DNA from: Flectonema sp. DT1601
Taxonomy: Eukaryota
Assembly: GCA_964019425.1 (NCBI GenBank)
Contig: OZ025786.1
Span: 1,302,001 to 1,366,000, forward strand
DNA: 64,000 nucleotides
Direction: 5' to 3'
Shown here: in pieces, positions 11,810 through 63,050 of the stretch
How positions within the stretch are numbered: the first letter of the stretch is position 1
How the letters are laid out: each line of letters begins with the position of its first letter
Notes under the pieces: generated by a model
Databases searched by the model: none
What the model was told of the DNA's origin: nothing
What the model saw: the letters and a program-made list of their open reading frames with translations, nothing else
Program-made: the position numbers and the translations under genes

Positions 11810-11823
11810 CCGATCGCCTCATT

Positions 11824-33900: not shown

Positions 33901-34505
33901 AGGAAGCGCAAGAAGAAAATGAGACCCCAAAGCGTCCGAGGGAGCGCCTATCCCAAAAAAAGCGAACTCCACCCTCAACGAATCCTCATGATCGCAGAAG
34001 AATCTTTTTAGATGACGATTGCTAAGTTCTAGTTTCTATTAGTATTAAATTATTTGTATTATTTTGTCGATATGTTTATGTCTGTCCGATCATAACGTCA
34101 ATCAGATTAATTGTTAATTGTAATTGGTTTGAGCGCTTATCAAAAAAAAAAAAAAGCGAACTCCAACCTCAACGAACTTTCATGATCGCAGAAGAATCTT
34201 TTTAGATGACGATTGCTAAGTTCTAGTTTCTATTAGTATTTATTTATTTGTATTATTTTGTCGATATGTTTATGTCCGTCAGATCATAACGTTAATCAGA
34301 TTAATTGTCAATTGTTAATTGTAAATGGTCTAAACCCCAATCCAAGTTCCCAAGGCTTGGCATAGATTTGAGTGACGCCTTACTGGCCTCCTCATCCTCT
34401 ATGAGTGGTGAGGGGGCCAGCAATGGTTTTTTTTTTTTTTCTCTTATTTCCTTTTTTCTTTTTCTTTTACTCTAATAGGAAATATTTTTGAACAAAATGT
34501 GATTA

Positions 34506-34540
<35 letters not shown>

Positions 34541-36297
34541 AATGAATAATAAAAAAAAAAAAAAAAAAAAAAACATGCCTTGGGAATACAACCAAAGCCC
34601 CAATTAATCGGTCCTTTCTTTTTTCCTTCTTGTCAAGTGATCGCTCCACTCGTCGATCACCAAAACCGATTGTATTTATATCTGTTCTTTTCTCAACGAT
34701 CGGCTATACCGATCTTTTTTTTAAAAATAATTGTTTTCTTCTTCTCGACGATCAGATCCAATTGATCGACCTTTTCTTTTTTTTTCCTTTATTCCTTCCA
34801 TCCCTCCCGCTCCCCTTATTTTAATAAAAACAAGATCAGCACAGCTTGATCGTTAAACTTTTTTTATTTATTTATTTTTTTTTTTTTTTTTATTTAAACT
34901 GATTGTATTTATATCTGGTTATTTTTCTCAACGATCGGCTATGCCGATCGACCATTAAAATAATTGTCTTCTTCTTCTCGACGACCAGATCCAATTGATC
35001 GACCTTTTCTTTTTTTTTCCTTTATTCCTTCCATCCCTCCCGCTCCCCTTATTTTAATAAAAACAAGATCAGCTCAGCTTGATCGTTATTTATTTATTTA
35101 TTTATTTTTTTTTTTTTTTTGTTGGTCCTAGTCAAGACCTTAAACTGACTAATCGGTCTTAACTTTAACTAAGTGAATGAACCCTTTCCGTTTTCCTTTT
35201 CCCTTTATTACTCTCTATCTGGTCTGTTATGTCATAAATCTCATTTAATTTTATCATTCATTTTAATTTTCACTGTTTCCCATCTACATTTTATTTTCAA
35301 ATAGTTCCGGTCTGTCTCTGATGTTAAATAAAACTGATCATGTTAACTCAATATTTTTTTTTATTATGTGCAAGAGATACCAACACGCAAGAGATACCAA
35401 CGCACATACGAGATACCAGCACTTCCGAGATACCGACACACAAGAGATACCAAGACACTTAAGATACCAGCAAGGACAGTGAGAGGTAGAATGAACTCTC
35501 CTCCTTGTGTCCGATCCTGATTATTTTTTGTTGAATTGGTAGTGTTACCTCAGTTTGCTACTCTCGTATCTGTGTTGTGTTAACTCATGTAAGTGATCTT
35601 AACTCCTGTTAAATAAAAAAAAAATTTCAAAAAAAAAGAAATTAAAAAAGAAGAATTTTCAAATGAAGTTATATCAACCCCTGCCACCCATTATGATCAA
35701 TTCCGCTTGTTTTTTTTTTTTTTTTTTTTTTTTTCTTCTTTCTTTTCTTCAAATATAAAAAAAAATTAAAAAATATAAAAGATGAAACAATGTTATCATT
35801 GTTTTTTTTATCGATCGACTATGTCGATTACTTCCAGTTTTCCGTCCTGGTCAAGACGCTAAACTGATTGTTTTTTTTTTTTTTTTTAAAAAATTAATAA
35901 AAAGAATATAAAAAAAAAAAAAAAAGAATAAACAATGTTATCATTGTTTTTTTTTATCGTTCGACTTTGTCGACTAATTTCTATTTTCCGTTTCTTTTCT
36001 TTAAATAATAAATAAAAAGAATTTAAAATAAAAAAAAAGAATAAACAATGTTATCATTGTTTTTTTATCGATCGACTATGTCGATTACTTTCTATTTTCC
36101 GTCCTGGTCAAGACGCTAAACTGATTGTTTTTTTTTCAAAATTAATAAAAAAGAATAAAAAAAAAAAAAAAAAAAAAAAGAATAAACAATGTTATCATTG
36201 TTTTTTTATCGATCGACTATGTCGATCACTTTCTATTTTCCGTCCTGGTCAAGACGCTAAACTGATTGTTTTTTTTTTCAAAATTAATAAAAAAGAA

Positions 36298-36328
<31 letters not shown>

Positions 36329-38956
36329 GAATAAACAATGTTATCATTGTTTTTTTTATCGTTCGACTTTGTTGACTAATTTCTATTTTCCGTTTTTTTT
36401 CTTTTAAAAAATAAATAAAAAGAATTTAAAATAAAAAAAAAGAATAAACAATGTTATCATTGTTTTTTTATCGATCGACTATGTCGATCACTTTCTATTT
36501 TCCGTCCTGGTCAAGACGCTAAACTGATTGTTTTTTTTCAAAATTAATAAAAAAGAATATAAAAAAAAAAAAAAAAAAGAATAAACAATGTTATCATTGT
36601 TTTTTTTTTTATCGTTCGACTTTGTCGACTAATTTCTATTTTCCGTTTCTTTTCTTTAAAGAATAAATAAAAAGAATTTAAAATAAAAAAAAAGAATAAA
36701 CAATGCTATCATTGTTTTTTTTATCGATCGACTATGTCGATCACTTTCTATTTTCCGTCCTGGTCAAGACGCTAAACTGATTGTTTTTTTTTTTCAAAAT
36801 TAATAAAAAAGAATATAAAAAAATACAAAAAAAAAGAATAAACAATGTTATCATTGTTTTTTTTTATCGTTCGACTTTGTCGACTAATTTCTATTTTCCG
36901 TTTTTTTTCTTTTAAAAATAAATAAAAAGAATTTAAAATAAAAAAAAAGAATAAACAATGTTATCATTGTTTTTTTATCGATCGACTATGTCGATCACTT
37001 TCTATTTTCCGTCCTGGTCAAGACGCTAAACTGATTGTTTTTTTTTTTTCAAAATAAAAAAAAAATATTAAAAAAAAAAAAATAAAAAAAAAAAAGAATA
37101 AACAATGTTATCATTGTTTTTCTTTATCGTTCGACTTTGTTGACTAATTTCTATTTTCCGTTTTTTTTTCTTTAAAAAATAAATAAAAAGAATTTAAAAA
37201 AAAAAAAAAAAAAAAAAGAATAAACAATGTTATCATTGTTTTTTTTATCGATCGACTATGTCGATTACTTTCTATTTTCCGTCCTGGTCAAGACGCTAAA
37301 CTGATTGTTTTTTTTCAAAATTAATAAAAAAGAATATAAAAAAATACAAAAAAAAGAATAAACAATGTTATCATTGTTTTCTTTATCGATCGACTATGTC
37401 GATTACTTTCTATTTTCCGTCCTGGTCAAGACGCTAAACTGATTGTTTTTTTTTCAAAATTAATAAAAAAGAATATAAAAAAATACAAAAAAAAGAATAA
37501 ACAATGTTATCATTGTTTTTTTTATCGATCGACTATGTCGATTACTTTCTATTTTCCGTCCTGGTCAAGACGCTAAACTGATTGTTTTTTTTTCAAAATT
37601 AATAAAAAAGAATATAAAAAAATACAAAAAAAAGAATAAACAATGTTATCATTGTTTTTTTTATCGATCGACTATGTCGATTACTTTCTATTTTCCGTCC
37701 TGGTCAAGACGCTAAACTGATTGTTTTTTTTTTCAAAATTAATAAAAAAGAATATAAAAAAATACAAAAAAAAGAATAAACAATGTTATCATTGTTTTTT
37801 TTATCGATCGACTATGTCGATTACTTTCTATTTTCCGTCCTGGTCAAGACGCTAAACTGATTGTTTTTTTTTTCAAAATAAAAAAAAAATATTAAAAAAA
37901 AAAAAATAAAAAAAAAGAATAAACAATGTTATCATTGTTTTTTTTTATCGTTCGACTTTATTGACTAATTTCTATTTTCCGTTTTTTTTCTTTAAAAAAT
38001 AAAAAAAAAGAATTTAAAAAAAAAAAAAAAAAAAGAATAAACAATGTTATCATTGTTTTTTTTATCGATCGACTATGTCGATTACTTTCTATTTTCCGTC
38101 CTGGTCAAGACGCTAAACTGATTGTTTTTTTTTCAAAATTAATAAAAAAAAAGAATATAAAAAAATACAAAAAAAAGAATAAACAATGTTATCATTGTTT
38201 TTTTTTATCGTTCGACTTTGTCGACTAATTTCTATTTTCCGTTTTTTTTCTTTAAAAAATTAATAAAAAGAATTTAAAATAAAAAAAAAAAAGAATAAAC
38301 AATGTTATCATTGTTTTTTTTATCGATCGACTATGTCGATTACTTTCTATTTTCCGTCCTGGTCAAGACGCTAAACTGATTGTTTTTTTTTTCAAAATTA
38401 ATAAAAAAGAATATAAAAAAAATAAAAAAAAAAAAGAATAAACAATGTTATCATTGTTTTTTTTTATCGTTCGACTTTGTTGACTAATTTCTATTTTCCA
38501 TTTTTTTTCTTTTTAAAAATAAATAAAAAGAATTAAAATAAAAAAAAAAAAAAAAGAATAAACAATGTTATCATTGTTTTTTTTATCGATCGACTATGTC
38601 GATTACTTTCTATTTTCCGTCCTGGTCAGGACGCTAAACTGATTGTTTTTTCTTTAAAAATAAATAAAAAGAATAAAAAAAAAAAAAAAAGGAATAAACA
38701 ATGTTATCATTGTTTTTTTTTTATCGATCGACTATGTCGATTACTTACTATTTTCCGTCCTGGTCAAGACGCTAAACTGATTGTTTTTTCTTTAAAATAA
38801 TTAAAAAGATTTAAAAAAAAAAAAAAAAAAAAAAAATGAATAAACAATGTTATCATTGTTTTTTTTTCTATCGATCAACTATGTCGATTAATTTCTATTT
38901 TCCGTCCTGATCGAGACGCTAAACTGATTGTTTCCTTTTTTTAAATAATAAATAAG

Positions 38957-38988
<32 letters not shown>

Positions 38989-39387
38989 ATCTCCCTGCTA
39001 TCCCTCATATCCCCACAATAATATTATACCTTTTCATTTTCTCTTTCCTTTTCTGGTCTTTTTTTTTTTCTTTTTTTCCTTTTTCATACAACGTTTTTTA
39101 TTTATATATATATATTTTTTTTTTTTTTTTTCATGTTTGATTATTTCCTCTTCATTTTTTTTTTTCTTTTCTTTTCTTTCTTTTTTTTTTTTTTTCCTCT
39201 GCCTCTCTCTTAATTCTGTTCGTTTCTTTGAAACGAAAATTCATTTGAATATTATTCCTTGGTCAGCAACCATCATTGTCGCCCTTTGGGCCTGTTAAAA
39301 AAAAATAAAATAAAAAGAAAGTTTACATCGGGAATAGGGCAGGAGCCAAAAGCTCCCAGTCCGTTACTTCCCACTTTATCGAAATTC
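30935..39387 (+). mobile_element. H copy 3: 5'-truncated ORF (variant B tail, stop 34025), 3' UTR, satellite array and cap
   Basis: The host-copy sequence CCCACTTT^AGTCAACAAG is split exactly around it and resumes at 39388. Confidence 0.85.
35780..38960 (+). repeat. Satellite array of ~139-bp (A) and ~113-bp (B) units
   Basis: Core GAATAAACAATGTTATCATTG(T)nATCGATCGACTATGTCGAT...TTTTCCGTCCTGGTCAAGACGCTAAACTGATTG; A-unit starts at 37356, 37495 and 37634. Confidence 0.95.
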
Positions 39388-39524: not shown

Positions 39525-42500
39525 GGTCAAGACGCTAAACTGATTGTTTTTTTTTTCAAAATAAAAAAAATATTAAAAAAAAAAAAATAAAAAAAAAGAA
39601 TAAACAATGTTATCATTGTTTTTTTTTTATTGTTCGACTTTGTTGACTAATTTCTATTTTCCGTTTTTTTTTCTTTAAAAAATAAATAAAAAGAATTTAA
39701 AAAAAAAAAAAAAAAAAGAATAAACATTGGATTTGGCAGATGCTTTCGGCTCAGTCAAACATCAATTAATTTTCTTTGCTTTAAAATATTTCGGAATTCA
39801 CGAAAGAATAATCGGTTTCTATAAAAGGTATTATTCCTCCATGCGCGTCCAAATCAGAGTTGGAGAAGGCCTGACGCCCACTATCCCTTTTGAAGTTGGT
39901 GTCTTTCAAGGCTGCGTTTCCTCCCCAACCCTTTTTAATTTGGTATTCCAACTACTGCTCTTTTCCTTAGCAGTTCATCAACAGGAAGCCTACGAGTTTA
40001 ACAATAAATCCCTCCAACTATTAGTTGCAGCTTTTGCTGATGATTTACAACTTACCACGTCATCAAAGGCGGGGGCAAAATTGCTAATCAAGTCGCTCGA
40101 ACAGTTTCTTTCCTGGTCTCGTGGTATGAAAGCGAAACCCCAGAAATGCATTGCCCACAGCTTTGTACAAGGGAAACCAGCTAACCCGGACCTGAAGATT
40201 AACAATGTTCCGATTACGAATCTCCAGGAAGCTGGAGAGTTCAAATACCTCGGGCGTTGGTTTGAGCCGAACGCCAAAGAACAGAAATTGCGAGAGCGCC
40301 TGACCACTTTTACCAGGAATTTTTTAAAAAAAGTCGACGCCATGCCACTATATGGGTCTCAGAAGGCTTGGTCTGTCCAACACTTGTTATTGTCAAGGTT
40401 AACATGGAGTTTAATGATCCATGACTTATCTCTCCCTTTTGCCAAAAAAATGGACAAAATTATTAAACCTTTTTTGAAGAAATGGTGGGGATTTGTCCGC
40501 TCTGCGAACACAGTCATCCTTTTTACCGGTTCAAAGAATACTGTTGGTCTCAGACACAAAAGAGTTGAGACGCTATATAAACAAGCGCAATCAATTAAAC
40601 TAGACATCCTCAGATCCTCACAGGACTCTGACATGCACGGTGTCTACAATGTTATTATGGAGAAATCGTCCAACTGGTCGAAAAAGTTTTCAGCTTCTGC
40701 TGAGTGGGAGCGCCTTATTAAGTTTTTTTCTTACCGTTCTCTTGCGAAGCAATCAGCTGGTCTTGGTCACCGATTGCGCGATCTACGTACTACTCGCCCC
40801 GATCTCCTTAAGCGTTTTGAAGTGGAAGCCACAGATGAACTACTGAACTCTTTGAATAAATTACAAGTCCAAGGTCAATGGAAGGAGTGGTCTAAATGTA
40901 TGATAAACGACTTCACCTGGAATAAGGTACTTAGGGAGGGAAATCCTGCCTATATCTCATTTCAACTGAAAGCGGTTACAAACACCCTCCCCTCACAAGA
41001 TAATTTAAAGAGGTGGAACATCACCAATGTGGACCAAAATTGTGTTTTGTGTGGCAAAGTGAATCCTACCCTCAGGCATGTCTTAACAGGCTGTCCTGTC
41101 TCTTTAACACAAGGGAGGTTCACGTGGCGTCACGACAGCGTTCTAAAACGCATTGTTATCTTCTTGGAAGAGTTGATAATAAAAGCCAACAAAAGAAAAG
41201 AAAACCTTCCGCCTCCCTCTCAAACTTTTTTAAAAACAGGGGAAAATAAACCCCTAGAAAGAATTTCTAAAGAGACAGGCGAACTTTCACTAGCGAATGA
41301 TTGGGTCATCCTCGACGATGTCGGTGATAACCGCCTAATTGTTCCTCTTGAAGTGTGCCATGTCTCGTCCTCTCTAAGACCAGACATTTTTATTTATTCT
41401 TTTTTTGCGAAAAGAGCACTGATTCTGGAGCTGACGTGTCCAAATGAAGATCGTTTCGAAACCTCTCATGTCTTAAAGGAAAAGAAATACCTAAAGCTAA
41501 GAGACTCGATCATCGCTAATGGCTTCGACTGTAACATTTTTACTATTGAAGTTGGCGTACGAGGAAACATCTGCATGGACCAGCTGAACATCTGGACACG
41601 TCACATCGGTTCACCTTTAGCACCAACAAAAGCTTTATTTTGTGAATGCACCAGAATCGCCAGACAGTGCTCATATGTTCTGTTCCAGACGAGGAACCTC
41701 CCCACGTGGCATTCAAGACCACTAATGCGCAGCATTAAAGAAGAACCTGCCACTGCAAGTTTTATAAAAGATGGTAAAGAAATCTTCCCTGTGGAAGAAG
41801 TCAAAATCCACAAAGTAACAAAACTGAAAACGATCGAAAAGCTCACCATTGAAAGATCGTGGCTTGAGAAATGTTTTATCTGGCAAACTTGTTACGCATC
41901 GGCTCTTTCTATTCTACTTGTTGCCAATGGTTCTTCCTCCCCGGCCCCTTCTGTTTTGTTAGATGAGGATGAGCTCACTGGACTCTCCTTGTCATTCTCT
42001 TCTATTTCTTCCATCTCTTTCCAGACTCCCCCACCTGAACTCATGTCAACGGGATCGCAAACACTTCCTGCTGATTTCGCTATAGTGATAAGAACTCAAT
42101 CTGACATGGGTTCTCAAACCCCCTTGTACAAAAAAAAAGAAGGAAAATTAAGGCTGAAACTTTCCTTGAAATGCCAGATTTTAGAAAACGAATTAGAGCA
42201 AATGAAAGAACGAATTTTTTATGTTCTATTTTTATTTTACTTTAATGCGATGTCAGCCTCCCTCGAGAAAGACAAGCAGTTACTAAATGGATTACCTGTT
42301 GAGATCAAAGCTACCAACCAGGATCCATCCTCACTTCCTCCTGCACCCCCTGTTTTAATTATTGAAAAAGATAGAAAAGAATATGAACTTCTGGAAGGAG
42401 TAATTCAACGGTTAACAGCAGAACGCGATGAATCGAAGACTTCTCTTTCTGCACTAGTTCGACAATATGACTTAGTGGAAGATTACAGGAAACGTGAGCT

Positions 42501-43738
42501 CGCAAATCTGACTCAGAGAGCAGACCTATCGGAAATGGCGCTCTTTAATTACCATCAAAGGTTTGTTCTTCTGTCGAACGAATTGGAGACCAAATGTAAT
42601 GAGGAAAGAGAAAGTAAAATTAGACTTTTCTATACTCAACAGGAGGTCGAGAGTTTGCGTGCCGCGCGTCCCCGTATGACCCACTTTAGTCAACAAGTTT
42701 CCCCCCGAACCCCCGTTCTGTATGAATCTGTTGCTATGATGAAGATAGCAAAGAACTACCTCTCGCTCTTTACAACTACGAGTAGTCTTTTTACTCCTCT
42801 TATTAAACCCCTTATCCCTACCCTTAATTATATCACCCCTCTTTGTCCTCTAGCCTCAATTCCTCCGACAATGCCGCAGAGTGAAGCTCTCGACCGCACG
42901 CCGACCAAGATTTTACGACAAGAGAGTCACGTTATCTCCGTTAAAGAGAATACACCTATTGCGAGACAATGGTCCGAGGGTAGGATTGACTTACTCGAGA
43001 ACTACTGTCGAGCAGTAGATGACTCTCTCGAAACAAACGAGAAAGCGGCAGAGCTCTCAGAACAACTTCTGGATGCCCAACTTCGCCTCTCGGAGCTGAA
43101 TCACCAACGGTGTACAACTCACGCAGAGCAGCTTGAGCAATCCATGATGTTAACGGGACTGGCGAGCGATTTAAATGCTCAACTCGCTTTGGCACGGTCT
43201 CAAATTGCGGCCCTGAAGTTCCAATTAGCTTCATGGGCAGAAGGTTTGAGTCCGCCAGACACAGAAGAACATGAGGAAAATGAAACTCCGCCGAGAAAGT
43301 CTGAGCGTTCAACTCTGAAAAAACGAACCCCTCCATCAAGATATCGTTACAATCGAAGGAGATGTTCTGCTGATGACGTTCACGGTGACTCCACCCCCTT
43401 GTAATTCTCTTTTTCCTTACTTTCACATCACTTTGTTTATTTAGTTTTTTAGCTTATTTATTATTTATTGTTCGTTTTTGTTTGTATTATTTTATCGATA
43501 TGTTTATGTCCGTCAGATCATAACGTTAATCAGGTTAATTGTTAATTGTTAATTATAAATGGTCTAAACCCCAATCCAAGTTCCCAAGGCTTGGCATAGA
43601 TTTGAGTGACGCCTTACTGGCCTCCTCATCCTCTATGAGTGGTGAGGGGGCCAGCAATGGTTTTTTTTTTTTTCTCTTATTTCTTTTTTTCTTTTTCTTT
43701 TACTCTAATATGAAATATTTTTGAACAAAATGTGATTA

Positions 43739-43770
<32 letters not shown>

Positions 43771-45024
43771 TGTAAATGAATAATAAAAAAAAAAAAAAAA
43801 AAAAATCATGCCTTGGGAATACAACCAAAGCCCCAATTAATCGGTCCTTTCTTTTTTCCTTCTTGTCAAGTGATCGCTCCACTCGTCGATCACCAAAACC
43901 GATTGTATTTATATCTGTTCTTTTCTCAACGATCGGCTATACCGATCATTTTTTTTAAAAATAATTGTTTTCTTCTTCTCGACGATCAGATCCAATTGAT
44001 CGACCTTTTCTTTTTTTTTCCTTTATTCCTTCCATCCCTCCCGCTCCCCTTATTTTAATAAAAACAAGATCAGCTCAGCTTGATCGTTAAACTTTTTTTA
44101 TTTATTTATTTTTTTTTTTTATTTATTTAAACTGATTGTATTTATATCTGGTTATTTTTCTCAACGATCGGCTATGCCGATCGACCTTTAAAATAATTGT
44201 CTTCTTCTTCTCGACGACCAGATCCAATTGATCGACCTTTTCTTTTTTTTTCCCTTTATTCCTTCCATCCCTCCCGCTCCCCTTATTTTAATAAAAACAA
44301 GATCAGCTCAGCTTGATCGTTATTTATTTATTTATTTATATATTTTTTTTTTTTTTTTTTTTTTTTTGTTGGTCCTAGTCAAGACCTTAAACTGACTAAT
44401 CGGTCTTAACTTTAACTAAGTGAATGAACCCTTTCCGTTTTCCTTTTCCCTTTATTACTCTCTATCTGGTCTGTTATGTCATAAATCTCATTTAATTTTA
44501 TCATTCATTTTAATTTTCACTGTTTCCCATCTACATTTTATTTTCAAATAGTTCCGGTCTGTCTCTGATGATAAATTAAACTGATCATGTTAACTCAATT
44601 TTTTTTTTATTATGTGCAAGAGATACCAACACGCAAGAGATACCAACGCACATACGAGATACCAGCACTTCCGAGATACCGACACACAAGAGATACCAAG
44701 ACACTTAAGATACCAGCAAGGACAGTGAGAGGTAGAATGAACTCTCCTCCTTGTGTCCGATCCTGATTATTTTTTGTTGAATTGGTAGTGTTACCTCATT
44801 TTGCTACTCTCGTATCTGTGTTGTGTTAACTCATGTAAGTGATCTTAACTCCTGTTAAATAAAAAAAAAAAAATTTCAAAAAAAAAGAAATTAAAAAAGA
44901 AGAATTTTCAAATGAAGTTATATCAACCCCTGCCACCCATTATGATCAATTCCGCTTGTTTTTTTTTTTTTCTTTTTTCTTCTTTCTTTTCTTCAAATAT
45001 AAAAAAAAATTAAAAAATATAAAA

Positions 45025-48000
45025 GATGAAACAATGTTATCATTGTTTTTTTTATCGATCGACTATGTCGATTACTTCCAGTTTTCCGTCCTGGTCAAGA
45101 CGCTAAACTGATTGTTTTTTTTTTTTTTTTTTTTAAAAAATTAATAAAAAGAATATATTAAAAAAAAAAAAAAAAAGAATAAACAATGTTATCATTGTTT
45201 TTTTTTATCGTTCGACTCTGTCGACTAATTTCTATTTTCCGTTTCTTTTCTTTAAATAATAAATAAAAAGAATTTAAAATAAAAAAAAGGAATAAACAAT
45301 GTTATCATTGTTTTTTTATCGATCGACTATGTCGATTACTTTCTATTTTCCGTCCTGGTCAAGACGCTAAACTGATTGTTTTTTTTTTCAAAATTAATAA
45401 AAAAGAATATTAAAAAAAAAAAAAAAAAAAAAAAAGAATAAACAATGTTATCATTGTTTTTTTTTATTGTTCGACTTTGTTGACTAATTTCTATTTTCCG
45501 TTTTTTTTCTTTAAAAAATAAATAAAAAGAATTTAAAATAAAAAAAAAGAATAAACAATGTTATCATTGTTTTTTTATCGATCGACTATGTCGATCACTT
45601 TCTATTTTCCGTCCTGGTCAAGACGCTAAACTGATTGTTTTTTTTTTCAAAATTAATAAAAAAGAATACTGCAACTGGAAATATTACTGCGCGGAAAAAA
45701 CCGCACTAATTTCCAAATCTGCAAAAAACCGCACTAATTTTTCCACGCAGTAATATTTCCACCGCACTAATATTTCTGCTCAGAAGTGATTTTTTCTCCA
45801 GCTGCATTTTTCTGCTGGTGCCTTACACAGCAAAAAAGCAACCAAATTTTTTTCTACCACCAAGTGGAAAAAACCGCACTAATCTTTTCTCAAAAAAACC
45901 GCACTAATTTTTCCGCGCAGTAATATTTCCCCGCAGTAATTATTCAGCGCAGTAATATTTCCAGTTGCAGTATAAAAAAAAAAAAAAAAAAAAAAAAAAT
46001 AAACAATGTTATCATTGTTTTTTTTATCGTTCGACTTTGTTGACTAATTTCTATTTTCTGTTTTTTTTTCTTTAAAAAAAAAATAAATAAAAAGAATTTA
46101 AAATAAAAAAAAAGAATAAACAATGTTATCATTGTTTTTTTATCGATCGACTATGTCGATCACTTTCTATTTTCCGTCCTGGTCAAGACGCTAAACTGAT
46201 TGTTTTTTTTTCAAAATTAATAAAAAAGAATATAAAAAAAAAAAAAAAAAAAAGAATAAACAATGTTATCATTGTTTTTTTTTTTATCGTTCGACTTTGT
46301 CGACTAATTTCTATTTTCCGTTTCTTTTCTTTAAAGAATAAATAAAAAGAATTTAAAATAAAAAAAAAAGAATAAACAATGTTATCATTGTTTTTTTTAT
46401 CGATCGACTATGTCGATCACTTTCTATTTTCCGTCCTGGTCAAGACGCTAAACTGATTGTTTTTTTTTTTCAAAATTAATAAAAAAGAATATAAAAAAAT
46501 ACAAAAAAAAGAATAAACAATGTTATCATTGTTTTTTTTATCGTTCGACTTTGTCGACTAATTTCTATTTTCCGTTTTTTTTCTTTAAAAAATAAATAAA
46601 AAGATTTTAAATAAAAAAAAAGAATAAACAATGTTATCATTGTTTTTTTATCGATCGACTATGTCGATCACTTTCTATTTTCCGTCCTGGTCAAGACGCT
46701 AAACTGATTGTTTTTTTTTTCAAAATTAATAAAAAAGAATATAAGAAAAAAAAAAAAAAAGAATAAACAATGTTATCATTGTTTTTTTTTATCGTTCGAC
46801 TTTGTCGACTAATTTCTATTTTCCGTTTCTTTTCTTTAAAGAATAAATAAAAAGAATTTAAAATAAAAAAAAAGAATAAACAATGTTATCATTGTTTTTT
46901 TATCGATCGACTATGTCGATCACTTTCTATTTTCCGTCCTGGTCAAGACGCTAAACTGATTGTTTTTTTTTTTTCAAAATTAATAAAAAAGAATATAAAA
47001 AAAAAAAAAAAAAAGGAAAAACAATGTTATCATTGTTTTTTTTTTATCGTTCGACTTTGTCGACTAATTTCTATTTTCCGTTTCTTTTCTTTAAAGAATA
47101 AATAAAAAGAATTTAAAATAAAAATAAAAAAAAAGAATAAACAATGTTATCATTGTTTTTTTTTATCGATCGACTATGTCGATCACTTTCTATTTTCCGT
47201 CCTGGTCAAGACGCTAAACTGATTGTTTTTTTTTTTCAAATTAATAAAAAAGAATATAAAAAAATACAAAAAAAAGAATAAACAATGTTATCATTGTTTT
47301 TTTTATCGTTCGACTTTGTCGACTAATTTCTATTTTCCGTTTTTTTTTTTCTCTTTAAAAAATAAATAAAAAGAATCTAAAATAAAAAAAAAGAATAAAC
47401 AATGTTATCATTGTTTTTTTATCGATCGACTATGTCGATCACTTTCTATTTTCCGTCCTGGTCAAGACGCTAAACTGATTGTTTTTTTTTTTTTTTCAAA
47501 ATTAATAAAAAAGAATATTAAAAAAAATACAAAAAAAAAAAGAATAAACAATGTTATCATTGTTTTTTTTTTTATCGTTCGACTTTGTCGACTAATTTCT
47601 ATTTTCCGTTTCTTTTCTTTAAAGAATAAATAAAAAGAATTTAAAATAAAAATAAAAAAAAAGAATAAACAATGTTATCATTGTTTTTTTTTATCGATCG
47701 ACTATGTCGATCACTTTCTATTTTCCGTCCTGGTCAAGACGCTAAACTGATTGTTTTTTTTTTTCAAATTAATAAAAAAGAATATAAAAAAATACAAAAA
47801 AAAGAATAAACAATGTTATCATTGTTTTTTTTATCGTTCGACTTTGTCGACTAATTTCTATTTTCCGTTTTTTTTTTTCTCTTTAAAAAATAAATAAAAA
47901 GAATCTAAAATAAAAAAAAAGAATAAACAATGTTATCATTGTTTTTTTATCGATCGACTATGTCGATCACTTTCTATTTTCCGTCCTGGTCAAGACGCTA

Positions 48001-49100
48001 AACTGATTGTTTTTTTTTTTTTTTCAAAATTAATAAAAAAGAATATTAAAAAAAATACAAAAAAAAAAAGAATAAACAATGTTATCATTGTTTTTTTTTT
48101 TATCGTTCGACTTTGTCGACTAATTTCTATTTTCCGTTTTTTTTCTTTAAAAAATAAATAAAAAGAATTTAAAATAAAAAAAAAGAATAAACAATGTTAT
48201 CATTGTTTTTTTTTATCGATCGACTATGTCGATTACTTTCTATTTTCCGTCCTGGTCAAGACGCTAAACTGATTGTTTTTTTTTTCAAAATAAAAAAAAT
48301 ATTAAAAAAAAAAAATAAAAAAAAAGAATAAACAATGTTATCATTGTTTTTTTTTTTATCGTTCGACTTTGTTGACTAATTTCTATTTCCGTTTTTTTTC
48401 TTTAAAAAATAAATAAAAAGAATTTAAAAAAAAAAAAAAAAAAAAGAATAAACAATGTTATCATTGTTTTTTTTATCGATCGACTATGTCGATTACTTTC
48501 TATTTTCCGTCCTGGTCAAGACGCTAAACTGATTGTTTTTTTTTCAAAATAAAAAAAATATTAAAAAAAAAAAAATAAAAAAAAGAATAAACAATGTTAT
48601 CATTGTTTTTTTTTATCGTTCGACTTTGTTGACTAATTTCTATTTTCCGTTTTTTTTCTTTAAAAAATTAATAAAAAGAATTTAAAAAAAAAAAAAAAAA
48701 GAATAAACAATGTTATCATTGTTTTTTTTATCGATCGACTATGTCGATTACTTTCTATTTTCCGTCCTGGTCAAGACGCTAAACTGATTGTTTTTTCTTT
48801 AAAAATAAATAAAAAGAATAAAAAAAAAAAAAAAGGAATAAACAATGTTATCATTGTTTTTTTTTTATCGATCGACTATGTCGATTACTTACTATTTTCC
48901 GTCCTGGTCAAGACGCTAAACTGATTGTTTTTTCTTTAAAATAATTAAAAAGATTTAAAAAAAAAAAAAAAAAAAAAAAATGAATAAACAATGTTATCAT
49001 TGTTTTTTTTTCTATCGATCAACTATGTCGATTAATTTCTATTTTCCGTCCTGATCGAGACGCTAAACTGATTGTTTCCTTTTTTTAAATAATAAATAAG
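45025..49100 (+). repeat. Satellite array, mostly alternating A/B units
   Basis: Same units; same first and last units as 35780-38960. Confidence 0.95.
45669..45970. mobile_element. 302-bp MITE, independent insertion into satellite
   Basis: Same TIRs, TA on both sides, a few substitutions versus 27347. Confidence 0.9.
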
Positions 49101-49473
49101 AAAAAAAAAAAAAAAAAAAAAAAAAGAGCATCTCCCTGCTATCCCTCATATCCCCACAATAATATTATACCTTTTCATTTTCTCTTTCCTTTTCTGGTCT
49201 TTTTTTTTTCTTTTTTTTCCTTTTTCATACAACGTTTTTTATTTATATATATATTTTTTTTTTTTTTTTTTTTTCATGTTTGATTATTTCCTCTTCATTT
49301 TTTTTTTCTTTTCTTTTCTTTCTTTTTTTTTTTTTTTCCTCTGCCTCTCTCTTAATTCTGTTCGTTTCTTTGAAACGAAAATTCATTTGAATATTATTCC
49401 TTGGTCAGCAACCATCATTGTCGCCCTTTGGGCCTGTTAAAAAAAAATAAAAATAAAAAGAAAGTTTACATCG

Positions 49474-50307
49474 GAGTTGAATTTCCAGGTGAGATTTGGA
49501 CTGTTAGCTTTTGGCTAAGGCCCTCCCTGAAGAGCAAGAACAAAAAAACTACTCACACCTGAAGAAAACATACACAAAGAACACACTGTAAGCTGTGTGT
49601 GTATTTTGTGTTTGTCACAACAGGAGAGAAAAGAAAGAATGTCAAGGTTGGTCACCTTGCCTATCAACGCACAACATTGGTGGTCTCTACTAGACCCTGA
49701 GTGATCCCACTGGATCTCTCATCGTTCATAGTACCCTGTGTGAAGTTATAAAATCAAAGGTAAACTATGAACTACAAATGACTTAGCCTGTTATTATAAT
49801 GCCACAGGCAGGCCCTGCATTCAGCAACTATCCAGCAGTGCTTGGATGTCCTGATCTTCTTCTAAAAAAAAGAAAGAAAAACAAAACTGTAGCTGGGATC
49901 ACTCAGGATCAACAGACTACCAATGCTACCTGTTGTACTTGCTCACTATGGGGGGTGATGCCAAACACCCAGAAGTACTTAACTACTTTCCTTCTTGCTG
50001 CCCAGGAGTTTCTGACCAGAACTAATAGAAAATAAAAAGTAGATGGGAAACAATAAAAAGTAAAATGGATATAACTGAAGTTAAACAAGACAAATGAGGT
50101 AACAGACCAGAACAGAAAGAGGATTGTAATAGAAGATTACAAATAAAAGAAATGCAAGTATCAACACATAATCAAGATACACCAGCAGCTAACAAACAAC
50201 ATAAAATTGAAGATCAGTTGCCAGAGTATTTCAACCATGGTAGAATACTCGCCCCTCTGGCAGGGATTATCCCAGACTTGTCCTTTAATTTAGTTGGACA
50301 CCATGGC
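49474..50307 (-). mobile_element. Family X copy inserted in an H cap
   Basis: Splits TACATCG^GGAATAGGGC without a clear TSD. Confidence 0.85.
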
Positions 50308-50477
50308 AGGAATAGGGCAGGAGCCAAAAGCTCCCAGTCCGTTACTTCCCACTTTATCGAAATTCATTATATCACCCCTCTTTGTCCTCTAGCCTCAATT
50401 CCTCCGACAATGCCGCAGAGTGAAGCTCTCGACCGCACGCCGACCAAGATTTTACGACAAGAGAGTCACGTTATCTC

Positions 50478-52883
50478 GGAGTTGAATTACCAGGTGAGAT
50501 TTGGACAGTTAGCTTTTGGCTAAGGCCCTCCCTGAAGAGCAAGAACAGAAAAACTACTCACACCTGAAGAAAACATACACAAAGAACACACTGTAAGCTG
50601 TGTGTGTATTTTGTGTTTGTCACAACAGGAGAGAAAAGAAAGAATGTCAAGGTTGGTCACCTTGCCTATCAACGCACAACATTGGTGGTCTCTACTAGAC
50701 CCTGAGTGATCCCACTGGATCTCTCATCGTTCATAGTACCCTGTGTGAAGTTATAAAATCAAAGGTAAACTATGAACTACAAATGACTTAGCCTGTTATT
50801 ATAATGCCACAGGCAGGCCCTGCATTCAGCAACTATCCAGCAGTGCTTGGATGTCCTGATCTTCTTCTAAAAAAAAGAAAGAAAAACAAAACTGTAGCTG
50901 GGATCACTCAGGATCAACAGACTACCAATGCTACCTGTTGTACTTGCTCACTATGGGGGGTGATGCCAAACACCCAGAAGTACTTAACTACTTTCCTTCT
51001 TGCTGCCCAGGAGTTTCTGACCAGAACTAATAGAAAATAAAAAGTAGATGGGAAACAATAAAAAGTAAAATGGATATAACTGAAGTTAAACAAGACAAAT
51101 GAGGTAACAGACCAGAACAGAAAGAGGATTGTAATAGAAGATTACAAATAAAAAAAAATGCAAGTATCAACACATAATCAAGATACACCAGCAGCTAACA
51201 AACAACATAAAATTGAAGATCAGTTGCCAGAGTATTTCAACCATGGTAGAATACTCGCCCCTCTGGCAGGGATTATCCCAGACTTGTCCTTTAATCTAGT
51301 TGGACACCATGGCTTACAACCCTTCCAGAGGGAAGCACCATTATGACTTCTATTTTTTTTCTTCAAGAAAATCATAAGGTGGTAACAAAGAAAAATGCTA
51401 AGAGGAACCCCCTATTAACACCTAAGACATCTAAACTGCAGCCCAGCCTATGCCCAATGCACTAACAGGTCATTCCCTCACACTCAGATCAAAAAATCAA
51501 AGTTCAGAGTGCATCTTAGCGTGAATGAGAGAATTTCCTCCCGCTTATTTTGAACAAAAGGGATAGGAGAAGGGATAGAAAACGAACATAAAAATAAGAT
51601 TCTAAGTGAGAAACACTTAGCAGAAATACTTAGCAGCTTTTAAGGAGCTGAAAAGCAAAAAAAAAATCTAAGTGAGAAACACTTAGTAGAAACAATTTGT
51701 AGCTAATTAAGCTGAAAATAAAAAAATAAAAAATTTCTAAGTGAGAAATACTTAGCAACTTTTAGAACAAATATTTCAGTAAATAACCTGTAATGATTAA
51801 ACCATTACAGGTTTGATGTCAAAACTGACAAGGACTGAGTTGAATTACCAGGTGAGATTTGGACAGTTAGCTTTTGGCTAAGGCCCTCCCTGAAGAGCAA
51901 GAACAGAAAAACTACTCACACCTGAAGAAAACATACACAAAGAACACACTGTAAGCTGTGTGTGTATTTTGTGTTTGTCACAACAGGAGAGAAAAGAAAG
52001 AATGTCAAGGTTGGTCACCTTGCCTATCAACGCACAACATTGGTGGTCTCTACTAGACCCTGAGTGATCCCACTGGATCTCTCATCGTTCATAGTACCCT
52101 GTGTGAAGTTATAAAATCAAAGGTAAACTATGAACTACAAATGACTTAGCCTGTTATTATAATGCCACAGGCAGGCCCTGCATTCAGCAACTATCCAGCA
52201 GTGCTTGGATGTCCTGATCTTCTTCTAAAAAAAAGAAAGAAAAACAAAACTGTAGCTGGGATCACTCAGGATCAACAGACTACCAATGCTACCTGTTGTA
52301 CTTGCTCACTATGGGGGGTGATGCCAAACACCCAGAAGTACTTAACTACTTTCCTTCTTGCTGCCCAGGAGTTTCTGACCAGAACTAATAGAAAATAAAA
52401 AGTAGATGGGAAACAATAAAAAGTAAAATGGATATAACTGAAGTTAAACAAGACAAATGAGGTAACAGACCAGAACAGAAAGAGAATTGTAATAGAAGAT
52501 TACAAATAAAAAAAAATGCAAGTATCAACACATAATCAAGATACACCAGCAGCTAACAAACAACATAAAATTGAAGATCAGTTGCCAGAGTATTTCAACC
52601 ATGGTAGAATACTCGCCCCTCTGGCAGGGATTATCCCAGACTTGTCCTTTAATCTAGTTGGACACCATGGCTTACAACCCTTCCAGAGGGAAGCACCATT
52701 ATGACTTCTATTTTTTTTCTTCAAGAAAATCATAAGGTGGTAACAAAGAAAAATGCTAAGAGGAACCCCCTATTAACACCTAAGACATCTAAACTGCAGC
52801 CCAGCCTATGCCCAATGCACTAACAGGTCATTCCCTCACACTCAGATCAAAAAATCAAAGTTCAGAGTGCATCTTAGCGTGAA
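50478..52883 (-). mobile_element. Two tandem family X copies (~1,358-bp period) inserted in the outer H ORF
   Basis: GAGTTGAATTACCAGG at ~50479 and 51837; the ORF is split at GTTATCTC^TTAAAGAG. Confidence 0.85.
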
Positions 52884-53847
52884 TTAAAGAGAATACACCT
52901 ATTGCGAGACAATGGTCCGAGGGTAGGATTGACTTACTCGAGAATTACTGTCGAGCAGTAGATGACTCTCTCGAAACAAACGAGAAAGCGGCAGAGCTCT
53001 CAGAACAACTTCTGGATGCCCAACTTCGCCTCTCGGAGCTGAATCACCAACGGTGTACAACTCACGCAGAGCAGCTTGAGCAATCCATGATGTTAACGAT
53101 TTTCGATAAAGTGGGAAGTAACGGACTGGGAGCTTTTGGCTCCTGCCCTATTCCCGATGTAAACTTTCTTTTTATTTTTTATTTTTTTTAACAGGCCCAA
53201 AGGGCGACAATGATGGTTGCTGACCAAGGAATAATATTCAAATGAATTTTCGTTTCAAAGAAACGAACAGAATTAAGAGAGAGGCAGAGAAAAAAAAGAA
53301 AAAAAAGAAAGAAAAGAAAAAAGAAAAAAAATATGAAGAGGAAATAATCAAACATGAAAAAAAAAAAAAAAAAAAATATATAAATAAAAAAAACGTTGTA
53401 TGAAAAAGGAAAAAAAAAATAAGGACTGGCGAGCGATTTAAATGCTCAACTCGCCTTGGCACGGTCTCAAATTGCGGCCCTGAAGTTCCAATTAGCTTCA
53501 TGGGCAGAAGGTTTGAGTCCGCCAGACACAGAAGAACATGAGGAAAATGAAACTCCGCCGAGAAAGTCTGAGCGTTCAACTCTGAAAAAACGAACCCCTC
53601 CATCAAGATATCGTTACAATCGAAGGAGATGTTCTGCTGATGACGTTCACGGTGACTCCACCCCCTTGTAATTCTCTTTTTCCTTACTTTCACATCACTT
53701 TGTTTATTTAGTTTTTTAGCTTATTTATTATTTATTGTTCGTTTTTGTTTGTATTATTTTATCGATATGTTTATGTCCGTCAGATCATAACGTTAATCAG
53801 GTTAATTGTTAATTGTTAATTATAATTGTTAATTGTTAATTATAAAT
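52884..53847 (+). pseudogene. End of the outer H ORF (stop 53671) with an inverted cap insert at 53099-53422
   Basis: Matches ~42941-43560 once the insert is removed. Confidence 0.85.
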
Positions 53848-54302
53848 CTTTTTTCTTTAAAAATAAATAAAAAAGAATTTAAAAAAAAAAAAAAAAAAGA
53901 ATAAACAATGTTATCATTGTTTTTTTATCGATCGACTATGTCGATTACTTTCTATTTTCCGTCCTGGTCAAGACGCTAAACTGATTGTTTTTTTCAAAAT
54001 TAATAAAAAAGAATATAATAAAAAAAATAAAAAAAAAATAAAAAAAAAATAAAAAAAAAATAAAAAAAAAAAGATTAAACAATGTTATCATTGTTTTTTT
54101 TTATCGTTCGACCTTGTCGACTAATTTCTATTTTTTTTTCTTTAAAAATAAATAAAAAAGAATAAAAAAAAAAAAAAAAAAAAGAATAAACAATGTTATC
54201 ATTGTTTTTTTATCGATCGACTATGTCGATTACTTTCTATTTTCCGTCCTGGTCAAGACGCTAAATTGATTGTTTCTTCTTTAAAAATAAATTAAAAAAA
54301 AA

Positions 54303-54337
<35 letters not shown>

Positions 54338-54704
54338 AATAAACAATGTTATCATTGTTTTTATCGATCGGCTTTGTCGACTAATTTCTATTTTCCGTCC
54401 TGGTCAAGACGCTAAACTGATTGTTTTTCTAAAAATAAATAAAAAGAATAAAAAAAAAAAAAAAAAAAAAAGAATAAACAATGTTATCATTGTTTTTTTA
54501 TCGATCGACTCTGTCGACTAATTTCTATTTTCCGTTTTCTTTTCTTTAAAAAATAAATAAAAAGAATAAAAAAAAAAAAAAAAAAAAAAAGAATAAACAA
54601 TGTTATCATTGTTTCTTATCGATCGACTTTGTCGACTAATTTCTATTTTCCGTCCTGGTCAAGACGCTAAACTGATTGTTTTTTCTTTAAAAATAAATAA
54701 AAGA

Positions 54705-54738
<34 letters not shown>

Positions 54739-56145
54739 AATAAACAATGTTATCATTGTTTTTTTTTATCGATCGACTTTGTCGACTAATTTCTATTTTC
54801 CGTCCTGGTCAAGACGCTAAACTGATTAGTTTTTTCTTTAAAAAATAAATAAAAAGAATAAAAAAAAAAAAAAAAAAAATGAATAAACAATGTTATCATT
54901 GGTTCTTATCGATCGACTTTGTCGACTAATTTCTATTTTCCGTCCTGGTCAAGACGCTAAACTGATTGTTTATTCCTTTAAAAAATAAATAAAAGATATA
55001 AAAAAAAAAAAAAAAAAAAAGAAATAAACAATGTTATCATTGTTTTTTTTATCGATCGACTTTGTCGATTACTGTCTACTTTCCGTCCTGGTCAAGACGC
55101 TAAACTGATTTTTTTTTTTTTTTTAAAAATTAATAAAAAGAATATAAAAAAAAAAAAAAAAAAAAAATGAATAAACAATGTTATCATTGTTTCTTATCGA
55201 TCGACTTTGTCGACTAATTTCTATTTTCCGTCCTGGTCAGGACGCTAAACTGATTGTTTTTTCTTTAAAAAATAAATAAAAAGATAAATAAAAAAAAAAA
55301 AAAAAAAAGGAATAAACAATGTTATCATTGTTTTTTTTATCGATCGACTATGTCGATTACTTTCTATTTTCCGTCCTGGTCAGGACGCTAAACTGATTGT
55401 TTTTTCTTTAAGAAATAAATAAAAAGTTAAAAAAAAAAAAAAAAAAAAAAAAGGAATAAACAATGTTATCATTGTTTTTTTTTTATCGATCGACTATGTC
55501 GATTACTTTCTATTTTCTGTCCTGGTCAAGACGCTAAACGGAAGTTTTTTCTTTAAAATAATTAAAAGGATTTAAAAAAAAAAAAAAAAAAAAAAAAAGA
55601 ATAAACAATGTTATCATTGTTTTTTTTTCTATCGATCAACTATGTCGATTAATTTCTATTTTCCGTCCTGATCGAGACACTAAACTGATTGTTTCCTTTT
55701 TTTTTAAATAATAAATAAAAAAAAAAAAATAAAAAAAAAAAAAAAAAAGAGCATCTCCCTGCTATCCCTCATATCCCCACAATAATATTATACCTTTTCA
55801 TTTTCTCTTTCCTTTTCTGGTCTTTATTTTTTTTTTCCTTTTTCATACAACGTTTTTTTATTTATATATTTTTTTTTTTTTTTTTCATGTTTGATTATTT
55901 CCTCTTCATATTTTTTTTTCTTTTTTCTTTTCTTTCTTTTTTTTCTTTTTTTTCTCTGCCTCTCTCTTAATTCTGTTCGTTTCTTTGAAACGAAAATTCA
56001 TTTGAATATTATTCCTTGGTCAGCAACCATCATTGTCGCCCTTTGGGCCTGTTAAAAAAAATAAAAAATAAAAAGAAAGTTTACATCGGGAATAGGGCAG
56101 GAGCCAAAAGCTCCCAGTCCGTTACTTCCCACTTTATCGAAATTC
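53848..56145 (+). mobile_element. 5'-truncated H insertion made only of satellite plus cap
   Basis: Splits ATAAAT(GG)TCTAAACCCC with a 2-bp loss. Confidence 0.85.
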
Positions 56146-57540
56146 TCTAAACCCCAATCCAAGTTCCCAAGGCTTGGCATAGATTTGAGTGACGCCTTAC
56201 TGGCCTCCTCATCCTCTATGAGTGGTGAGGGGGCCAGCAATGGTTTTTTTTTTTTTTTTTTCTCTTATTTCTTTTTTTCTTTTTCTTTTACTCTAATATG
56301 AAATATTTTTGAACAAAATGTGATTATTAATTTAAAAAAAAAAAAAAAAAATAATAATGTAAATGAATAAAAAAAAAAAAAAAACATGCCTTGGGAATAC
56401 AATCAAAGCCCCAATTAATCGGTCCTTTCTTTTTCCTTCTTGTCAAGTGATCGCTCCACTCGACGATCACCAAAACCGATTGTATTTATATCTGTTCTTT
56501 TCTCAACGATCGGCTATACCGACCATTTTTTTTTTTATAAATAATTGTTTTCTTCTTCTCGACGATCAGTTCCAATTGATCGACCTTTTTTTTTTTTTTC
56601 CTTTATTCCTTCCATCCCTCCCGCTCCCCTAATTTTAAATAAAAACAAGATCAGCTCAGCTTGATCGTTAATCTTTTTTTCTTTTTTTAATTTAAACTGA
56701 TTGTATTTATATCTGTTTATTTTTCTCAACGATCGGCTATACCGATCAACCTTTAAAATAATTTCTTCTTCTCGACGATCAGATCCAAATGATCAACCTT
56801 TTCTTTTTTTTTCCTCTATTCCTTCCATCCCTCCCGCTCCCCTATTTGTAATAAAAACAAGATCAGCTCAGCTTGATCGTTAATTTTTTTTCTTTCTTTT
56901 TTGTTGGTCCTAGTCAAGACCTTAAACTGACTAACCGGTCTTAATTTTAAATAAGTGTTAACCTAGTTTCTCTTTTCCTTTTCAATTTCCTTTTAATACT
57001 CTCTATCTGGTCTGTTATGTCATATTTCTCATTTAATTTTATCATCCATTTTACTTTTCACTGTTTCCCATCTACATTTTATTTTCAAATAGTTACGGTC
57101 TGTTAAAAAAAAAAAAAGTTTAAATAAGTTAAATAGAACATGTTAACTCAATTCCTCAATTCTTCCGTCATGGTCATGACATTCTTTTTCGTTTCTCTAA
57201 ATGCACAAGAGATACCATCACTCATGAGATACCAACGCACATACGAGATACCAGCACTCCAGAGATACCGACACGCTAGAGATACCAAGTCACTTGAGAT
57301 ACCTCCTTGTAAATTAATTCCCGGTATTTCAAATTTGAATTGATAGTGTCAACTCTGCTTGCTGCTCTTGTTAATGTGTTGTCTCCTGACAGTGATCTTA
57401 ACTCCTGTAAAAAGAAAAAAAAAAAAAGAAATCAAAAAAGAAGAATTTTCAAACGAAGTTATAACAACCCCTACCACCCATTATGATCAATTCCGCTTGT
57501 TTTTTTTTTTTTTATAACAAAAAAAAAATAAAAAATTATA
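56146..57540 (+). mobile_element. H 3' UTR of the outer copy
   Basis: Homologous to ~34328-35780 and ~43563-45025. Confidence 0.85.
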
Positions 57541-57561
57541 AAAGATTAAACAATGTTATCA

Positions 57562-57610
<49 letters not shown>

Positions 57611-60674: not shown

Positions 60675-60706
<32 letters not shown>

Positions 60707-62998: not shown

Positions 62999-63050
<52 letters not shown>
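62027..63050 (+). mobile_element. 5'-truncated poly(A)-tailed retroposed fragment in a satellite A-tract
   Basis: Cys-rich ORF end (CDFC...CTKC..TCRRC, stop 62343), ~630-nt tail, terminal hairpin, long A-run. Confidence 0.6.

What the first reader, a model, noticed from the sequence alone, without database searches (positions are those of the whole stretch)
39330..39387. Fixed 3' terminus with a strand-specific stem-loop instead of a poly(A) tail
Seen: GGGAATA-GGGC-A-GGAGC-CAAAA-GCTCC-CA-GTCC-GTTAC-TTCCC folds as an extended hairpin, with a G-U pair that favours the + strand, 15 nt before the end ACTTTATCGAAATTC. This end occurs eight times in both orientations (15177, 20435, ~20939, 39387, 50365, ~53099, 56145, 59470); even the ~220-bp copy keeps it. 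Inference: the RT recognition and priming signal.
Basis: partly seen in the sequence, partly recalled or inferred. Interest (0 to 1): 0.7.

Follow-up and report, generated by a model that had tools for sequence, protein, structure and literature searches.

The report
Hairpin start signal of retro-parasite repeats
A small hairpin lies 25 bases before the end of two protein-less mobile repeats in this eukaryote, kept between them through compensating base changes, and likely tells a borrowed reverse transcriptase (most likely a Penelope-type one) where to start copying without a poly(A) tail.

Summary
The hairpin and end are real. Eight copies occur in both orientations with eight different flanks: 6 are exact, 1 has a mismatch, and the 214-bp copy keeps the hairpin but loses the last 6 nt.

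The end belongs to a non-coding repeat, E (3-7 kb, internal satellite arrays). A second family, F (6 copies), has the same 9-bp core at the same distance from its end (22/27 identical, 3/18 just upstream) with two compensatory pairs.

Copies are 5'-truncated (214 bp to 10.6 kb), lie sense-downstream of RT ORFs and form head-to-tail partial tandems. None of 7 reconstructable sites has a target duplication, and one junction carries a poly(A) run. This points to an RNA intermediate. Helentron, Helitron and Replitron features were tested and not met.

Which enzyme reads the hairpin is open. Both RT elements in the window have their own hairpin-free 3' ends. Chlamys-type Penelope RTs (four families apparently in this assembly) fit best (0.5). 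The R2-group LINE fused upstream of E is the rival (0.33).

3' stem-loop recognition by RTs is known; this is a new instance with unusual passengers.

The parts
39337..39362 (+). Conserved 9-bp core hairpin (GGGC/GTCC with G-U; GGAGC/GCTCC; CAAAA loop)
   Evidence: MFE fold; 100% of 117 cells paired, 2 pairs compensatory between E and F
39330..39372 (+). Extended hairpin incl. outer stem GGGAA/TTCCC (register differs in F)
39363..39387 (+). 25-nt tail between core hairpin and 3' end; same length in F, only 10/25 identical
34329..39387 (+). Complete family-E copy: 233-bp x2 repeat (34663-35120), ~140/115-bp satellite array (35739-38985), ~400-bp terminal region
43563..50365 (+). Complete E copy, interrupted by a TIR MITE (45667-45972) and an inverted F (49473-50306)
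56146..59470 (+). Complete E copy, head-to-tail behind the E end at 56145; interrupted by TIR element 58409-59185
53845..56145 (+). E copy lacking its 5' part, joined to the LINE tail
15177..16230 (-). E 3' part; upstream of it lie a rRNA-bearing MITE piece and a truncated Penelope-like element
19701..20435 (+). 5'-truncated E (735 bp), inverted against the Penelope-like ORF
20943..21156 (-). Short E copy (214 bp) with filler bases at both ends
53098..53422 (-). Short E copy (325 bp) in the LINE ORF, no target loss or duplication
21363..22196 (+). Family-F copy (834 bp) with the compensated hairpin 25 nt before its 3' end
50478..52884 (-). F partial tandem (1358-bp period) inserted in the LINE ORF
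14433..15183 (-). F copy, interrupted by the E end at 15177
11815..12491 (+). Diverged, interrupted F copy; last 8-9 nt missing
17240..19701 (-). 5'-truncated Chlamys-type Penelope-like element (RT + OTU domain), own 3' end in a C-run, no hairpin
39728..43562 (+). 5'-truncated R2-group LINE (RT, zf-RVT, RLE-like motif, ~570-aa extension) whose tail abuts E
34128..34155 (+). Own 3' end of LINE variant 2: 14 nt plus A14, joined to an A7 run of a 180-bp LINE piece followed by E

Best explanation
The hairpin is the conserved subterminal structure of two non-coding mobile repeat families (E and F) and is likely the RNA handle that a trans-acting reverse transcriptase, most likely a Chlamys-type Penelope-like RT with a GIY-YIG nickase, binds to start cDNA synthesis about 25 nt downstream, so that no poly(A) would be needed. 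Shown: the structure, its conservation and compensation, its fixed distance to the ends, 5' truncation, near-blunt insertion without duplication, head-to-tail tandems, and co-insertion of upstream sense sequence. Inferred: (1) E is transcribed on the + strand, often as read-through from an upstream LINE or as a multimer. (2) The RT is anchored on the hairpin and primes from a near-blunt chromosomal nick. (3) It copies until it stalls or jumps to another RNA, and the 5' side is sealed by microhomology or filler. (4) Whatever lies upstream on the transcript (LINE, Penelope fragment, MITEs) is carried as a passenger.
For: Selection on the structure: 22/27 identity in the core (binomial p 6e-9) vs 3/18 upstream and 10/25 in the tail. 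Two G-C to U-A double changes; slid controls 24-50% paired.

RNA intermediate: insertions of 214, 325, 735, 3325, 4524, >=5239 and 10638 bp share the 3' end. Every RT ORF fused to an end is in sense. An A14 run sits at an internal junction. 7 of 7 reconstructable sites have no duplication and lose 0-3 nt, with 5' microhomology or filler. The empty LINE site is seen in 2 of 4 other runs laid.

Penelope-type features: partial head-to-tail tandems (E-E at 56145/56146; F, 1358-bp period), a 1352-nt closed-loop contig ending in the E end in run X6, an inverted truncated copy beside a PLE, no hammerhead, and internal tandem repeats. All are listed for Naiad/Chlamys in PMC8557442. A purified PLE starts RT internally at a stem-loop (PMC11167929). 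Four Chlamys-type families with 12, 29, 59 and 24 member proteins share contig lengths, so appear to be one assembly; three have an N-terminal GIY-YIG motif.
Against: No autonomous PLE carrying this hairpin was seen. The only PLE 3' end visible lacks it and sits in a C-run, the usual Chlamys target, which E and F do not use. The inverted pair 15177/20435 is weaker than it looks: the arms differ (68-nt gap, 17 substitutions) and the right flank does not continue the left target. All three variant-1-type LINE tails in the window, and a contig in run X5, run into E, which favours the LINE. The compensation rests on two lineages only, and F's hairpin is no more stable than shuffles (z +0.8, -0.4). 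There are no RNA data. No 30-40-nt PLE 'tail' extension was found.
Confidence: 0.5

Rival explanations
1. The hairpin is read by the R2-group (HERO-like, name recalled) LINE protein. The LINE acquired E as a 5-6 kb 3' trailer, and its RT now starts at E's end; F and short copies are SINE-like users of the same signal.
For: LINE tail + GG + E start is identical at 34329 and 43563 and in an X5 contig with the other E subtype; the subtypes differ by ~6%, so the junction is old. Two 5'-truncated LINE+E insertions end at the hairpin end. R2 RT adds non-templated bases and jumps templates (PMC8857657, listing and abstract start). Restriction-like-endonuclease elements can have precise 3' ends, variable 5' ends and no TSD (PMC4640811 passages).
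Against: LINE variants 80% identical in the 3' region keep their own ~70-nt conserved 3' block, and variant 2 ends in A14 without the hairpin. E-only, F and X6 loop units carry no LINE sequence.
Confidence: 0.33
2. E and F are non-autonomous rolling-circle (HUH) DNA elements such as Helentron/HINE, Helitron or Replitron. The hairpin would be a single-stranded DNA origin or terminator, and read-through would capture flanking DNA.
For: A 3' hairpin, central tandem repeats and no TSD also describe HINEs (PMC4067079 passages). E starts with TC. The hairpin also forms as DNA.
Against: No inverted or direct terminal word of 7 nt or more. No TT, A|T or RG target: the base after the 8 E ends is T, A, A, A, A, G, T, A. 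No CTRR end. Junctions carry fillers and 2-nt deletions. There is a poly(A) junction. No Rep/helicase match among the 20 window ORFs scanned.
Confidence: 0.07
3. The hairpin is a transcript-end signal (terminator or processing site). Resulting RNAs are patched into chromosome breaks by any available RT without specific recognition.
For: Sloppy junctions and mixed passengers. 3 of 6 E targets resemble E's last 40 nt, as annealing-guided repair would give.
Against: High copy density (14 hairpins in 64 kb), near-zero substitutions among E ends and tandem multimers suggest a dedicated mechanism. There is no U-run or poly(A) signal after the hairpin.
Confidence: 0.1

Closest known systems
Non-autonomous Chlamys Penelope-like elements (MRC1, Chlamys-N4; PMC8557442, bioRxiv 10.1101/2022.05.23.493040)
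   Same: Non-coding, frequent 5' truncation to very short copies, partial or multicopy head-to-tail tandems, no hammerhead, tandem repeats inside; Chlamys-type RTs apparently in the same assembly
   Different: No (C)n/(CA)n targeting; no 3' similarity to an autonomous PLE shown; a conserved, compensated terminal hairpin is not described in the sections read; carries a LINE as passenger
Poseidon PLE PAc of Anolis (PMC11167929)
   Same: Fixed genomic end without poly(A), tied to a stem-loop; tandem organisation
   Different: PAc starts inside an AC-rich stem-loop at two sites that define a 30-40-nt tail and has a hammerhead; here one end lies 25 nt 3' of the core, with no tail and no ribozyme found
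Stringent LINE/SINE 3' stem-loops (UnaL2, zebrafish LINEs; PMC1636434, PMC4176376, listing and abstract starts only)
   Same: Stem-loop with internal loop near the 3' end, shared between partner families and needed by the RT
   Different: Those end in short tandem repeats (recalled) and belong to APE-type LINEs (recalled); sequence is unrelated
R2-group / HERO-like RLE LINEs
   Same: RT + zinc knuckle + RLE-like motif upstream of E; precise 3' end, variable 5' end, no TSD
   Different: A 5-6 kb satellite-bearing trailer and a ~570-aa C-terminal extension; the LINE also has its own poly(A)-like end
Helentron/HINE/DINE-1 (PMC4067079)
   Same: 3' stem-loop, central tandem repeats, no TSD
   Different: No subterminal inverted repeats, no T-flanks, strongly 5'-truncated copies

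Membership tests
Non-autonomous Chlamys/Naiad PLE | 5' truncation with shared 3' end | tested here: met
Non-autonomous Chlamys/Naiad PLE | Partial tandem / head-to-tail copies (pLTR) | tested here: met
   56145/56146; F 1358-bp period; X6 loop contig
Non-autonomous Chlamys/Naiad PLE | Inverted 5'-truncated copy adjacent to the 5' end | tested here: inconclusive
   Present at 19701-20435, but arms differ and flanks do not rejoin
Non-autonomous Chlamys/Naiad PLE | 3' similarity to an autonomous PLE | tested here: inconclusive
   Not met for the one PLE in the window; DNA of the three other families could not be fetched
Non-autonomous Chlamys/Naiad PLE | (C)n/(CA)n target (many, not all, families) | tested here: not met
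   Targets; only the PLE itself ends in a C-run
Non-autonomous Chlamys/Naiad PLE | No canonical hammerhead | tested here: met
   Rfam scans; core motif scan hit only F's antisense strand, in 3 copies
Non-autonomous Chlamys/Naiad PLE | Optional 30-40-nt tail extension | tested here: not met
   No two of 8 E or 6 F flanks are shared
Chlamys-type PLE (ORF 17569-19701) | CxC motif, DK motif, insertion in fingers, N-terminal GIY-YIG without CCHH | tested here: met
   CxC, DKA and the insertion in P0031, the longer form of the window ORF; GIY-YIG seen only in relatives P0036/P0061/P0065; no tree built
3' UTR of an RLE LINE | Contiguous sense fusion downstream of the ORF in all copies | tested here: inconclusive
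   3 of 4 LINE tails run into E; the variant-2 tail ends in A14
HERO clade | RT phylogeny with HERO references | not tested
   No labelled reference returned; name recalled from motifs
Helentron/HINE | 11-15-bp subterminal inverted repeats | tested here: not met
Helentron/HINE | TT target / T-flanks | tested here: not met
Helitron | 5' TC, 3' CTRR, A|T target (recalled; AT/TT target in PMC10288648) | tested here: not met
   TC present in E only; ends ATTC/CTCC; varied flanks
Replitron | Short terminal direct repeats | tested here: not met
   features
Any HUH element | Rep transposase partner in the genome | not testable with these tools
   No genome held
RT recognition signal | Protein binding and start-site dependence on the hairpin | not testable with these tools
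   needs biochemistry

The most novel reading that the evidence does not exclude
A hammerhead-less, telomerase-sister Penelope RT uses the hairpin as an anchor and ruler, starting a fixed 25 nt downstream whatever the tail sequence. The RNA's 3' arm pairs with the target DNA to help pick the site (3 of 6 E targets match it over 8-15 nt). A whole R2-group LINE has become a passenger of this signal: one retroelement class hitch-hiking on another.
Probability: 0.15. Interest if true: 0.75.

Novelty: new variant of a known kind. Interest (0 to 1): 0.42.

Why it matters
How hammerhead-less Naiad/Chlamys elements define their 3' end is open; PMC8557442 calls for an in vitro system. A 27-nt structure with natural compensatory variants and a measurable 25-nt spacing gives a ready substrate and mutants for such an assay. 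It also shows cargo of up to ~10 kb inserted from a non-poly(A) end. If the LINE is the enzyme, it documents a LINE swapping its poly(A) end for a structured one. The general idea of RT recognition of a 3' stem-loop is already established, which caps the surprise.

Tried and rejected
No whole genome is held, so genome-wide end counts were impossible.

Pattern scans for the hairpin core gave 0 hits in viral contigs and 0 in prokaryote genomes. Metagenomes gave 14 hits; none has the compensated stem or matches the window by blastn, so they were rejected as chance. Related-locus scans of viral contigs for the PLE and LINE proteins found none.

Rfam gave no ribozyme or tRNA family over either end, and ARAGORN found 0 genes. 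An rDNA-spacer reading was rejected because the 28S fragments lie inside TIR elements. A covariance model from 13 ends found only the 14 known copies; the other 5 hits had E>=3.3.

Sequencing runs: no RNA holder listed. Run X2 laid nothing. Contig depths are not copy numbers and were not used. Five LINE ORFs were not in the protein collection by exact sequence. The earlier-findings index was empty. The supplement of PMC8557442 gave no hit for the core 11-mer, 'hairpin', 'stem-loop' or 'OTU', but long cells are cut, so this is weak.

An assembly artefact was rejected because the empty site and the same end occur in other runs. No structure or complex job was run.

Full report
1. Observation. 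The hairpin is at 39330-39372 and the end at 39387. Eight ends exist, five on + and three on -, each with a different flank. Six are exact, 53098 has one substitution, and the 214-bp copy has its last 6 nt replaced.

2. Setting. The window is eukaryotic: 28S rRNA fragments and an AAA host gene at 1-6747. From ~10 kb on it is a nest of transposons. No genome is held. The end belongs to a non-coding family, E. Three complete copies start with TCTAAACCCC (34329, 43563, 56146). They hold a 233-bp x2 repeat and a ~140/115-bp satellite array, then ~400 bp of terminal sequence. The 8 terminal regions are nearly identical: 0-3 substitutions per pair, except one pair with 14 around a deletion.

3. A sister family. 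Family F (834 bp; 6 copies) carries the same core at the same register: 22/27 identical, against 3/18 just upstream and 10/25 in the tail. All 9 pairs are kept in 13 of 13 aligned ends (the split 50365 copy was left out of the alignment). Two G-C pairs become U-A, the G-U pair and the CAAAA loop are invariant, and slid controls pair at 24-50%. This is two lineages, so the compensation is suggestive, not statistical proof, and F's fold is not better than shuffles. E ends lie 25 nt after the core. Four of 6 F ends lie 24-25 nt after it; two are shorter. E and F also share a 99-bp internal block at 81%.

4. Other runs. Seven runs hold part of the end region. Contigs of X3, X5 and X6 stop matching exactly at the end, X4 stops 2 nt short and X1 11 nt short; contig breaks are not molecule ends. 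X4 and X6 show the empty LINE site of the 39387 insertion. X6 has a 1352-nt closed-loop contig made of the E end plus 1284 unlaid letters, i.e. a head-to-tail or circular unit. In X5 the E start is preceded by the LINE tail.

5. Insertion signature. Lengths ending at the E end range from 214 bp to 10.6 kb. All 7 insertions with both sides reconstructable (4 E, 3 F) have no duplication and lose 0-3 target bases; several have filler or 3-7-nt microhomology at the 5' side. Three further E ends had no second side. RT ORFs fused upstream are always in sense. One internal junction joins a LINE 3' end with A14 to an A7 run, as a jump onto an mRNA tail would. I infer an RNA intermediate with template jumps (about 0.9). 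Post hoc, 3 of 6 E targets resemble E's last 40 nt (host-window fractions 0.001, 0.006, 0.027; the others 0.40, 0.95, 0.97; Fisher p 0.0009), while 0 of 3 F targets resemble F's end. This is a lead only.

6. Candidate enzymes. (a) A 5'-truncated Penelope-like element, RT + OTU (17240-19701). Its longer form and relatives show the CxC, DK and finger-insertion motifs; three sister families have an N-terminal GIY-YIG without CCHH. This is the Chlamys type of PMC8557442 (read: parts 2-6 of 10). Shared contig lengths suggest that four such families lie in one assembly. The window's own PLE ends in a C-run without the hairpin. (b) An R2-group LINE (RT, zf-RVT; 'HERO-like' is recalled, no labelled reference was returned). 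Three of its four tails run into E, two with the same junction. Yet its variants share their own conserved ~70-nt 3' block and variant 2 ends in A14. So neither element in the window owns the hairpin outright.

7. Mechanism. The best reading (0.5) is a Chlamys-type RT anchored on the hairpin and starting ~25 nt downstream. It rests on partial tandems, the loop contig, lack of poly(A) and hammerhead, and the precedent of internal initiation at a stem-loop by a purified PLE (PMC11167929, parts 1-2 of 4). Against it: no PLE with this end was seen, there is no (C)n targeting and no tail, and the inverted pair at 15177/20435 has unequal arms and non-matching flanks. The LINE reading (0.33) rests on the old, stable fusion and on template jumping and non-templated addition by R2 RT (PMC8857657, listing and abstract start). 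HUH elements (0.07) fail on subterminal repeats, targets and termini (features from passages of PMC4067079 and PMC10288648). Unspecific capture of terminated RNAs takes 0.1.

8. Known versus new. 3' stem-loop recognition is established for stringent LINEs (PMC1636434, PMC4176376; listing and abstract starts). Non-autonomous Chlamys elements with short truncated insertions are known (bioRxiv 10.1101/2022.05.23.493040 passages). Searches showed no description of this hairpin or of a LINE carried behind such a trailer, but the library lacks most subscription journals and Repbase. One supplement was searched with no hit, and its long cells are cut; supplements of the other papers were not seen. 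Also consulted: bioRxiv 10.64898/2026.07.22.740005 part 1 of 5 and passages of PMC4640811, PMC13580325, PMC7650587 and PMC6431247.

9. Verdict. This is a real, conserved subterminal structure of young non-autonomous retro-mobilised repeats. New variant of a known kind; interest 0.42.

Noticed in passing
window 17569-19701 (-); P0031, P0036, P0006, P0078, P0009: Chlamys/Naiad-type PLE RTs carry three different deubiquitinase-type domains at the C-terminus: OTU (window, P0031; motif also in P0036), UCH/USP (P0006, P0078) and Josephin (P0009). LINE relatives carry UCH (P0096) or Ulp1 (P0098).
   Followed up: partly
window 60447-61604, 16230-17229 and 22250-23300: Non-autonomous TIR elements (57-bp TIR, GGG...CCC, A-rich flanks, Mutator-like by recall) carrying 28S rRNA fragments and tRNA-like sequence. 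One is inserted in E's satellite and hosts the PLE in a C-run just upstream of the 28S R2-site sequence (recalled).
   Followed up: partly
window 41670-43404, 32700-34025 and 10143-10934: The LINE ORF continues ~570 aa past the endonuclease motif with no Pfam match; part of the variant-2 extension is similar to a separate ORF at 10143 (E 6e-30), suggesting gene capture.
   Followed up: partly
window 34382-34420: Strong hairpin near the start of E (z -3.5), with no Rfam match.
   Followed up: no
window 21363-21460: The 5' end of F is rich in inverted repeats; two independent F copies begin within 1 nt of the same base, hinting at a natural RNA 5' end.
   Followed up: partly
window 58409-59185, 27345-27650, 10826-11810: Three further TIR elements: two TA-flanked MITEs and one with an 8-bp target duplication (hAT-like by recall).
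   Followed up: no
window 13055-14432: Fragment with an endonuclease VII-like motif, resembling a Polinton-type polymerase region (recalled), cut by F.
   Followed up: no
window 62027-63050: 950-bp unique piece with a zinc-finger-like ORF and a ~70-nt A-run, inserted in E's array.
   Followed up: no
window 11183-11266 (-): Weak twister-P1 match (31 bits, below the gathering score of 67).
   Followed up: no
window 1-6747 (-): Intron-less ORF of over 2249 aa with AAA domains, RNF213-like by recall.
   Followed up: no
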